This document shows, piece after piece, positions 22,424 through 25,400 of a stretch of DNA of 64,000 nt. The stretch is from Hormiphora californensis. Lineage: Eukaryota; Animalia; Ctenophora. Position 1 is the stretch's first letter; every line of letters begins with the position of its first letter. Below the pieces are notes generated by a model. The model searched no databases, had not been told where the DNA came from, and was given only the letters and a program-made list of their open reading frames with translations. The position numbers and the translations under genes were made by a program. The stretch spans positions 5,394,001 to 5,458,000 of the forward strand of contig CM035362.1 in assembly GCA_020137815.1 (NCBI GenBank), in the 5' to 3' direction.

Positions 22424-25400
22424 ATGTTCGGACCTTTTAAGGGGCTCTTCGCGACTGAGGAGGAACAAACCGGGATAAGAAAGGTTTTTAGCACAAATTT
22501 ATTTGCAATGAGAAAGTAAACACTGTTCAAAGTCTCGTACAATATACCGTGGTAGACAATCAATTAGTTTGCTGTTTGATAATTACTCGGCAGTGTATAA
22601 CTCAATGCCCCCTTTCTAGGTGTACGTGTTTAATCGATATCCGGAGGGTATAACTCCTCATCAGTTCCCCGATAATGCGATCAAGACCAGCAAGGTACTT
22701 TTGACGCTATGTCGATTTGAACAGTCTCAGTCATTTTAAAACACACAGTATTATATTCCCGACCAACGTTGTTTTGTATTCGCAACTTTCTAAATCTATA
22801 ATTGATATTAGTCTAAATCTCATTAGTCTAAATCTCATCCTCATCTAACTTGTTCCTCAGTACACCTTCTGGAATTTCATTCCAAAGAATCTCTACGAGC
22901 AGTTCAAAAGGATAGCTAACTTTTACTTTCTCTGTGTTGTGATTATCATGGTAAGTTCAAATTTCCTGTACTGATATCTCCCATATTTGTACGCCCTTTT
23001 TTGAACAATATCCGTGTTTTTTACCCTCTTTTCCTGACCAAAATATCATTGTTGACCCCATCCTATTTCCGGTGTTCTTATATTCCAAATGACATACTAT
23101 TTTCTGAATCCTGGGAATTGCCGCCCAGTTATTCATATTTTTCGTGCCTGATTTTCAGCCCATTTTCAGCTTTGTATTGAGACTCCCATCGGACCAGGAA
23201 CCACTATGATGCCCCTAACTATAGTGATAACCATATCACTGTTTAAACAGGTATTACTACACACAACCTTCTGATCTTTTGGTAAACTTTGATAAACACT
23301 TGATCGTGGTTACCTTCGTAACCACCTATTACGTGGTAACCTTGGTTAACACCTGATTGTGGTGACCACCTAGTCGTGGTAACCTTGGTAACCGCGGTAA
23401 ACACCTGAGAAATGGCTCGAGAAACAGCTTGTCTCCTTCTGAATTCATCTGAAACTTTGGTAGTTGGTCCTTTTTCACTGACGTCACTAAGTCATTGTGT
23501 TACAGTGAAAAAAGTACCAACAATGAATGAGAACTAATTCATTGTGTTGCATAATAACCAACTGTGTGGTGCAATTACAGCATTGATCTCAATTTATGGT
23601 CAAATTGGCTCGTACTGAAGAAGAGAAGACAACTTTTGTGAGAGACTCCATTTCTCTCTCTCTCTCTCTCTCTCTCTCTCTCTCTCTCTCTCTCTCTCTC
23701 TCTCTCTCTCTCTCTCTCTCTCTCGCTCTCTCGCTCTCTCACTCTCTCTCCCCCCTCTCTAAACTAAAACCAAAAAGTGTTAAGAAAATAAGAATTTCTC
23801 ACCACCACGATATGTTCTCTTGACTCTTATTGTGCTGCTAAAAGCTTGAGTTGCAGCTGACACTGTGTCCGTGCTCTATAAGAACAATTCAACTATTTAT
23901 CACCAAAGAACTAAAAGATCCAGGAACCGACCGACAAAAGTAAACAACCAATCAGAACTCGTCATTTATGTCACGTGACTGGTTTTCAGCCAATCAGGGA
24001 CCAGTATTTCCTGATTCGGTCGGTTCCTGAAAAGATCGGAAGGTATTGTGTGACATGTCATCATCCCCCGCTCACCCCCGCTAAATACTATCTAGATTCT
24101 CATTGACTCTTCCATAAGCTACGGAACAACACTTATACCACTGACCCTAGTGGTGACGTTCAGTATCTGTAAACAGGTTATATATATCAGCAATTAGTTT
24201 ATAGTTTTCAGCATATTGAAAAGTACAAATACTACTCACATTGCATACTGAAAAGTATATATTGGTGATATAACAGCAAATTTATAATTTTGAGCAATCA
24301 ACAGATTTATTGGTCTGTTAATCAACCATGTCATGTTTTCTCTAAGCACTATTGATATAAAGTGACTATAGTTTTTGTGGGGAAACACAAAAAACTTAAA
24401 AATTCCCTAATTTCTACCGCCGTGGTATCGCCCTGTTTTCTAAACTGTCACACTATATGCATTTCTCGGGGTAGTAGAGAGAGTGAGTCAAGAGAGTTGA
24501 AAAGATAAACACCCTTTGTAATCAACGGCCTTGCATTGCACCATTATGGATGACGAAAAGAGAGTGAGAGGTAATGGGAGAGAGAGAGAGAGTGAGAGTG
24601 AGAGTGAGAGGGAGTGTGAGTGAAGGAGTGAGAGAGAGTGAGAGTGAGAGTGGGAGAGGGAGCAAACTAAATGAAATAAAACCATGTCAGGAGAGTTGTG
24701 GAGAAACAGAGAGAAACAGAGAGAGAGAAATGTGGTAGTTTAGATGCAGCAGCAGAAGATTGGGGTGAGGCCTGACAGATTAATCATACCATATATGGTA
24801 TAATGAGTTTCTTCTGTCAGATCCAGGGTTTTTACAGATCTCAACATCACCATACAATTGAACCTGCACATTTCTCCACATTTCACCATACAAAATAGAC
24901 ATGTACCTGCACATTTTTCCATACATACACTTTTCAATGAATCCCAACTTTTTGCCACCTTTACCACCCACAATTATCTACCAAATATATCACTAATTAA
25001 TTAATTATTAATTATCAGGGATATGAAGATTACCAGAGGCACAAGGCAGACAATGAGGTGAATCAGCGGCTTGTTAGTGTCATAAGACATGGGTGTCTGC
25101 AGCAGATCGTCAGCAAGAACATACGGGTGAGTGAACATTCGATTAATTAAAATAATAACGATAATGAAATATACCACTAATTTATAAGTTATTAACTAGG
25201 AGACCCACGAGCACCTCCCATAACCCCTTCCCCCCGTGTGCATGGCGTGAACCATTTGTTATTGTTTTTGGAAGTGTACTGAAGGTGTTCCAACTTCCAT
25301 TGTCTTGGGGTGAGATTTTGAGTCATGAGTGGGTTTCATTCAAATGATTTATTATATCTCCTTGAAAATATTTCAAAAAAAGGTTCCACAAAAAACACAC

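What the first reader, a model, noticed from the sequence alone, without database searches (positions are those of the whole stretch)
23170..24176. Candidate mutually exclusive exons swap the lipid entry gate of an ATP11 flippase
Seen: two 81-nt phase-0 exons with intact AG/GT encode homologous 27-aa peptides ([27 protein letters not shown] and [27 protein letters not shown]) between the TM1 exon and GYEDYQRH. They are highly diverged yet both open, and including both would add a TM helix and invert topology. Established: the exoplasmic end of TM1, the TM1-2 loop and TM2 form the head-group entry gate of P4-ATPases. Inference: one gene makes two flippases with different lipid selectivity by splicing. 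I do not know of this in vertebrate ATP11A/B/C.
Basis: partly seen in the sequence, partly recalled or inferred. Interest (0 to 1): 0.78.

Follow-up and report, generated by a model that had tools for sequence, protein, structure and literature searches.

The report
Comb-jelly flippase with swappable gate lid
A comb-jelly gene for a membrane lipid pump (ATP11-type flippase) carries two intact, long-diverged copies of the exon that builds the lid of its lipid entry gate, so it likely makes two pump versions by splicing in one or the other, which would more likely tune the gate than replace the residues known to grip the lipid.

Summary
Exons A (23170-23250) and B (24096-24176) are both 81 nt, phase 0 and AG/GT-bounded. 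They are the only duplicated exon found in an ATP11-type P4-ATPase gene of a ctenophore. B looks selected, not dead: only 4 of 27 second codon positions differ from A, B scores like A on an outgroup profile (23.2 vs 22.3 bits), and 8 of 84,014 simulated dead copies scored as well. B keeps family residues (D, S, S) that A and lobate ctenophores lack, which suggests an old duplication. Use of B is not shown: all five spliced ctenophore proteins found, and one contig from a relative, carry A. The lipid-selectivity reading is only partly supported. The main selectivity residue (ATP11C Gln79; Met here) lies in the shared upstream exon, and the Thr90, Ser91 and Pro94 positions are identical in A and B. 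B instead rewrites the TM1-2 lid loop (5 of 7 residues, both family prolines lost). Human ATP10B already swaps homologous TM1-TM2 exons, so the design has a precedent; two human catalogues list no ATP11 case.

The parts
22424..22483 (+). Coding exon 1 of the ATP11-type gene (ATG at 22424)
22620..22694 (+). Coding exon 2
22861..22950 (+). Shared exon 3, most of TM1; its last codon (Met, 22948-22950) is the position of ATP11C Gln79
   Evidence: spliced to an A-type exon in a contig of a relative
23170..23250 (+). Exon 4A (81 nt, phase 0): end of TM1, TM1-2 loop, TM2; 25 of 27 aa identical to the lobate ctenophore form
23653..23750 (+). (CT)n run in the A-B intron; can pair with the GA-rich run downstream of B and would loop B out (not specific to B)
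23924..24029 (.). Dispersed MITE-like inverted-repeat element ending 66 nt upstream of B; 7 further matches in the window (6 long, 83-95% identical; 1 short) and 1 copy in other flanks in run X1
24096..24176 (+). Exon 4B (81 nt, phase 0): diverged homologue of 4A, candidate mutually exclusive alternative
24560..24662 (+). Imperfect GA-rich run in the intron after B
25019..25126 (+). Shared exon 5 (GYEDYQRH...), cytoplasmic end of TM2 and link to the A domain
31223..48130 (+). Remainder of the ATP11-type gene: about 25 further single-copy exons and two candidate alternative last exons; three exons are frameshifted in this assembly

Best explanation
This ctenophore ATP11-type flippase gene holds two intact, selected copies of the exon for the TM1-2 lid loop and TM2, which are likely spliced one-or-the-other (A probably the common form, B a minor or cell-restricted one), and the swap would tune how the outer gate closes rather than replace the known head-group contacts. 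Shown: two same-phase homologous exons, constraint on B's protein sequence, and identical T/T/P at the ATP11C Thr90/Ser91/Pro94 positions. Inferred: B is still used today. Inferred: one-or-the-other use is enforced at least by protein folding, since two copies or none would change the number of membrane helices. Inferred: loss of both loop prolines (Pro to Ser, Pro to Tyr) and a repacked TM2 face change lid flexibility, lipid affinity or turnover, and possibly the lipid range.
For: Differences by codon position 12/4/17; pS 0.58 vs pN 0.35. Of 84,014 simulated dead copies with matching total divergence (kept from 320,000 runs, eight settings), 467 had 4 or fewer second-position changes, 57 also kept an open frame and AG/GT, and 8 reached B's profile score. 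B has D4, S5, S8, the commonest residue in 26, 28 and 35 of 39 outgroup segments, where A and lobates have E, T, G, which fits a duplication older than the split from lobates. The flanking introns of A and B share only short local matches (best 21 and 24 nt). Both copies have weak splice sites against the gene's other exons: acceptors 3.8 and 2.7 vs a leave-one-out range of -0.5 to 14.7 with only 2 and 1 of 27 lower; donors 6.0 and 4.8 vs 4.0 to 10.7 in 28. Weak sites are typical of regulated exons (general knowledge). The TM1-2 loop closes the exoplasmic end of the path and is the one outer loop not covered by CDC50 (10.1101/666321).
Against: All five spliced ctenophore proteins that span the exon (two Bolinopsis, two Mnemiopsis, one unnamed Logan protein) carry A; 1 of the 6 cluster members could not be read. 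The one spliced contig in run X1 goes from exon 3 into A-type sequence and on for about 255 letters without a break. B lacks Pro at positions 6 and 9, present in 37 and 36 of 39 outgroup segments, and Tyr9 occurs in 0 of 39; this fits new function or decay equally. A young mobile element sits 66 nt upstream of B's acceptor. Window A and B share Thr17 against Ile in lobates, the one site that favours a younger duplication. No specific mechanism for exclusive splicing was found. The simulation starts from present-day A and its statistics were chosen after seeing the data.
Confidence: 0.6

Rival explanations
1. One gene makes two flippases with clearly different head-group selectivity: B changes which lipid is flipped.
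For: Residues around the head group influence selection, and TM1-4 swaps between Drs2 and Dnf1 change specificity (PMC12424579). [quoted passage not shown] With Met in place of the TM1 Gln (Q in 27, M in 0 of 39 outgroup segments), the loop could matter more here. The first exon residue (L vs I) is the position next to that Gln.
Against: The Gln79 position lies in the shared exon; the Thr90, Ser91 and Pro94 positions are identical in A and B; TM4 and TM6 contacts are outside the swap.
Confidence: 0.2
2. B was a working alternative exon for a long time but has recently been silenced, for example by the mobile element next to its acceptor, and is an intact relic.
For: B has the second-weakest acceptor score in the gene. 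The element at 23924-24029 is up to 95% identical to other copies, so young. A CT/GA duplex of about -149 kcal/mol could loop B out. A dead exon stays intact in 49-75% of runs after 0.05 substitutions per site. Only A-type spliced records were found.
Against: Survival falls to 6-34% at 0.2 and 0.1-9% at 0.5 substitutions per site, against a synonymous distance of about 1.1 between A and B, so death would have to be very recent. Similar or stronger intron pairing surrounds constitutive exon 5.
Confidence: 0.15
3. B is a copy that was never functional, or an assembly merge of another allele or paralogue.
For: The assembly has indels in other exons of this gene. An earlier unreviewed note on this genome (e1-10417509) describes dead intronic exon copies that differ mainly at silent sites.
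Against: B is a complete exon with both splice sites and 14 amino-acid changes, 41% of its bases differ from A, no neighbouring exon is duplicated and the flanking introns are unrelated. Neutral decay reproduces its profile score in 8 of 84,014 runs.
Confidence: 0.05

Closest known systems
Human ATP10B, tandem-duplication event 24 (ENST00000327245 vs ENST00000642502; PMC8373072 supplement) and cluster 2328 (PMC5740500 supplements)
   Same: A P4-ATPase that exchanges homologous exons covering TM1, the TM1-2 loop and TM2; the cluster is listed with differential tissue inclusion.
   Different: It is listed as an N-terminal event: alternative first exons replace the whole N-terminus, TM1 and TM2 (129 vs 157 aa). 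Here one internal 27-aa cassette is exchanged and TM1, with the Gln79 position, is shared. Different subfamily and phylum. I saw no functional comparison of the two ATP10B forms in the passages read.
Human ATP8A1 annotated mutually exclusive 74-nt exons (event 29 / cluster 2238)
   Same: Internal, same-length homologous exons in a P4-ATPase, kept across vertebrates.
   Different: They encode a segment after TM2, in the actuator domain (domain assignment from my own knowledge), not the membrane gate, and their length is not a multiple of three.
Human ATP11C (PDB 6LKN, 7BSP series; Q79E structures)
   Same: Best solved relative of the lobate orthologue (902 bits vs 748 for the next family); the segment aligns without gaps and has the same length, 27 aa; C-terminal splice variants are known (PMC11775268).
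   Different: ATP11C has Gln79 where the ctenophore has Met. No ATP11 entry occurs in the two human homologous-exon catalogues as held.
Octopus ATP8B duplicated gate exon (earlier scan note e1-8672705, unreviewed)
   Same: Described as a duplication of the exon for the TM1-2 loop and TM2 in a P4-ATPase.
   Different: Other subfamily and phylum; an AI note, not checked here, so a lead for convergence and not support.

Membership tests
ATP11-type (class VI) P4-ATPase | Highest similarity to ATP11 among solved P4-ATPases | tested here: met
   Exon 3 peptide 42.4 bits to ATP11C vs 29.6 next; the Mnemiopsis orthologue 902 vs 748 bits; window exons 1-12 match that orthologue at 337 of 377 positions. 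No tree was built.
ATP11-type (class VI) P4-ATPase | P-type catalytic motifs (DGET, DKTGT, TGD, GDGAND) and PISL in TM4 | tested here: met
   All present in window exons; the exon with DKTGT is frameshifted upstream of the motif in this assembly.
ATP11-type (class VI) P4-ATPase | TM1 glutamine of PS flippases (ATP11C Q79) | tested here: not met
   Met in the window, Bolinopsis and Mnemiopsis; Q in 27, A 4, S 4, H 3, T 1, M 0 of 39 outgroup segments. This lowers 'PS flippase', not family membership.
ATP11-type (class VI) P4-ATPase | CDC50-dependent lipid flipping | not testable with these tools
   Needs expression and assay.
Mutually exclusive homologous exons (tandem exon duplication) | Neighbouring exons of similar length, same phase, homologous sequence, canonical splice sites | tested here: met
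   81/81 nt, phase 0/0, 13 of 27 aa identical, AG/GT.
Mutually exclusive homologous exons (tandem exon duplication) | Each copy is joined to both flanking exons in RNA | tested here: inconclusive
   A-type joining seen in relatives; no RNA run of this species holding B was listed.
Mutually exclusive homologous exons (tandem exon duplication) | No A>B joining in RNA | tested here: inconclusive
   Only contigs of one run of a relative were available.
Mutually exclusive homologous exons (tandem exon duplication) | Both copies under purifying selection | tested here: met
   Codon-position pattern and simulations; recent loss is not excluded.
Mutually exclusive homologous exons (tandem exon duplication) | Both copies conserved in related species | tested here: inconclusive
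   A is a discrete exon-like segment in a read-through ORF from another assembly (P0009); no genomic DNA of another ctenophore could be fetched to look for B.
Mutually exclusive homologous exons (tandem exon duplication) | An enforcing mechanism (frameshift and NMD, donor-branch-point proximity, U12/U2 clash, docking-selector pairing) | tested here: inconclusive
   Lengths divisible by three; the A-B intron is 845 nt; neither donor reads like the U12 consensus (recalled); longest perfect non-microsatellite complement between the regions compared is 10 nt. A folding constraint remains.

The most novel reading that the evidence does not exclude
Animals have repeatedly and independently made the moving TM1-2 gate of lipid flippases a splice-swappable module (ATP10B in mammals, ATP11 in ctenophores, perhaps ATP8B in molluscs). 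In ctenophores, whose ATP11 has lost the PS-recognising glutamine, the two lids give one gene two lipid preferences, for example for the ether (plasmenyl) phospholipids these animals use to set membrane curvature.
Probability: 0.2. Interest if true: 0.72.

Novelty: new variant of a known kind. Interest (0 to 1): 0.45.

Why it matters
How flippases choose lipids is only partly explained by the few known contact residues. This gene offers a natural chimera pair: two versions identical except for 14 residues in the lid loop and TM2, with the known contacts held constant and the usual glutamine absent. Comparing them would directly test what the TM1-2 loop contributes to gating and lipid choice. 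If the same module is swapped in several subfamilies and phyla, it marks the loop as a general tuning point. It also adds a case of homologous-exon switching in ctenophores, for which my one literature search returned no dedicated study.

Tried and rejected
No whole genome is held for this window. Sequencing-run search on the B region: no RNA holder listed, only run X1 with next to none of the words; this blank says nothing on expression. Protein searches with an A+B alignment found one A-type read-through ORF among 39 candidates at 71-2000 aa and no candidate at 18-70 aa; B has an in-frame stop directly upstream and full-length B forms would fall into A's cluster, so these blanks are weak. 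The metagenome scan returned 4 loci from 212 pattern matches, none ctenophore-like and none with a tandem copy of the exon. A docking-site search found nothing beyond 10-nt matches and microsatellite pairing, which also surrounds constitutive exon 5. Exon A alone found no solved structure. Literature searches with no relevant hit: ATP11 + mutually exclusive exon + flippase, 0 papers; P4-ATPase + mutually exclusive + alternative splicing + substrate specificity + isoform, 1 unrelated paper; CG14741 + mutually exclusive, 0; ATP8B terms, none of the 20 listed of 374 had the exon phrase; ctenophore + P4-ATPase + flippase, 1 of the 15 listed of 735 held all three terms, once each. I recall a Drosophila ATP8B (CG14741) cluster of mutually exclusive exons; the paper I tried is not held, so which exon it affects is unchecked. 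The B-containing protein was not folded.

Full report
The observation. They lie between exon 3 (22861-22950) and exon 5 (25019-25126), all in phase 0. They share 48 of 81 bases and 13 of 27 residues. A profile made from 39 database segments ranked B and A first and second of 127,830 windows (23.2 and 22.3 bits; next -15.4), so B is a true homologue and there is no third copy. Those 39 are the distinct 27-residue segments ending in KQ among 148 segments extracted from 150 unnamed hits; the other 109 were dropped for length, ending or duplication. Calling them ATP11-type and non-ctenophore is my inference from their sequence.

The gene and organism. The closest proteins are from the ctenophores Bolinopsis microptera (XP_063693860, XP_063693861) and Mnemiopsis leidyi (KAL5246901, KAL5246902). 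The first 12 window exons match the Mnemiopsis protein at 337 of 377 positions, so the window is from a ctenophore; I did not determine the species. That protein's best solved relative is human ATP11C (902 bits vs 748 for the next family). tblastn places the gene at about 22424-48130 with every exon single except exon 4. Three exons change frame or contain a stop in this assembly (near 39430-39500, 41074 and 42175). These look like consensus errors because the surrounding exons are well conserved, but I could not check raw reads.

What the exon encodes. In a model of the Mnemiopsis protein (mean pLDDT 84.8, 85-89 across this region) TM1 is helical at 63-77, the loop is 78-84 and TM2 runs 85-117; the exon is residues 76-102. 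B differs from A at 2 of 2 TM1 residues, 5 of 7 loop residues and 7 of 18 TM2 residues. By alignment to ATP11C the exon is residues 80-106. In ATP11C the PS head group bonds to Gln79, Thr90 and Ser91 (PMC12723151, passages), and TM2 is kinked at Pro94 (10.1101/2019.12.23.881698, passages). [quoted passage not shown] Here the Gln79 position is the last codon of the shared exon 3 and is Met in all ctenophore sequences seen. Positions 90, 91 and 94 are T, T, P in both A and B. The swap therefore leaves these contacts unchanged. What it changes is the loop that closes the exoplasmic end of the path and is not covered by CDC50 (10.1101/666321, passages), and the packing face of TM2, which moves during the cycle (PMC8733269, passages). 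B loses two prolines found in 37 and 36 of 39 outgroup segments.

Is B alive? For: differences fall 12/4/17 on codon positions 1/2/3, with pS 0.58 and pN 0.35 (dS about 1.1, dN about 0.47). I simulated a dead copy beside a copy allowed only synonymous change and kept the 84,014 of 320,000 runs with 31-35 differences. Of these, 467 had at most 4 second-position changes, 57 also kept the frame and both splice dinucleotides, and 8 reached B's profile score. Indels were not modelled, the starting point was present-day A, and the statistics were chosen after seeing the data. B carries the family's commonest residue at positions 4, 5 and 8 where A and lobates do not, while one site (Thr17, shared by window A and B only) points the other way. 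Parsimony favours a duplication older than the split from lobates, which predicts a B exon in their genomes. Both A and B have weak splice sites compared with the gene's other exons. Against: the five spliced ctenophore proteins that span the exon all carry A, and one of six cluster members was not read. A 470-nt spliced contig in run X1, from a relative, runs from exon 3 into A-type sequence; its first 30 letters there encode the same ten residues as A, with 9 of 10 codons differing silently by my own count. A dead exon stays intact in 49-75% of runs at 0.05 substitutions per site and 6-34% at 0.2, so a recent silencing cannot be excluded. A young dispersed element ends 66 nt upstream of B's acceptor.

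How exclusivity might be kept. Both exons are multiples of three, so a frameshift cannot remove double inclusion. The A-B intron is 845 nt, far above the under-50-nt donor-to-branch-point distance used for steric blocking (PMC5740500, passages). No unique docking element was found. A (CT)n run upstream and a GA-rich run downstream of B can pair (about -149 kcal/mol) and would favour skipping B, but constitutive exon 5 has equally strong flanking pairing. Folding is the remaining filter: two copies or none would change the number of membrane helices (inference).

Comparison with what is known. Human ATP10B has alternative homologous N-terminal exons that cover TM1, the loop and TM2, and human ATP8A1 has an internal mutually exclusive pair after TM2 (supplement rows of PMC8373072 and PMC5740500). 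ATP11 occurs 0 times in those supplements as held; long files may have been cut when stored. The searches listed under Tried and rejected found no paper on such exons in ATP11 or on ctenophore flippases; most subscription papers and bioRxiv supplements were not visible. So the design is known, and the new aspects are the subfamily, the phylum and the small internal cassette that leaves TM1 shared. An unreviewed note on an octopus ATP8B gene (e1-8672705) describes the same exon duplicated; I did not test it. Ctenophores adjust plasmenyl-PE with depth (PMC12632798, passages), which is context for the bolder reading only. PMC8527503 (passages) and PMC11775268 (passages) were read for background.

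Verdict. A real, old, selected exon duplication. About 0.8 that B is used today, as one-or-the-other with A. Within that, tuning of gate behaviour (0.6) is more likely than a clear change of head-group choice (0.2). A recent relic gets 0.15 and an artefact or never-functional copy 0.05. Interest 0.45: a clean natural test pair for the flippase gate, but with no RNA evidence for B yet and with a human precedent for the design.

Noticed in passing
window 22948-22950: Ctenophore ATP11 has Met at the TM1 position where PS flippases have Gln (window, Bolinopsis, Mnemiopsis); Met occurs in 0 of 39 outgroup segments. The enzyme may not be a typical PS flippase.
   Followed up: partly
window 47394-47612 and 48038-48130: Two candidate alternative last exons match the two C-termini annotated in both Bolinopsis (X1, X2) and Mnemiopsis; the first match is weak (E 0.19) and its acceptor was not resolved. 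This parallels the C-terminal variants of human ATP11C.
   Followed up: partly
window 39423-39544, near 41074 and near 42175: Frameshifts or a stop within three ATP11 exons, including the one with DKTGT; likely consensus errors of the assembly.
   Followed up: partly
window 23924-24029, 51839-51946, 57299-57399, 34793-34902, 59795-59890, 33352-33428, 9071-9136: A family of about 105-nt elements with terminal inverted repeats that folds into a long hairpin; also present in run X1 in different flanks.
   Followed up: partly
window 23280-23410: Cluster of short GGTAACC/GGTTACC palindromic repeats starting about 30 nt after exon A's donor, predicted to fold into hairpins; similar repeats precede the last exon near 47940-48010.
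   Followed up: no
window about 8300-13400, 16045-16900 and 20819-21628: Exons of a coiled-coil protein upstream of ATP11 appear in repeated, near-identical copies (for example 10229 and 12514; 16045 and 20819 regions), with a 100-N gap near 11290-11390; a local duplication or assembly redundancy.
   Followed up: no
window 25127-31222 and 32667-37358: Two long introns (6.1 and 4.7 kb) in an otherwise compact gene; not examined for nested genes, which are common in ctenophores (PMC8527503).
   Followed up: no
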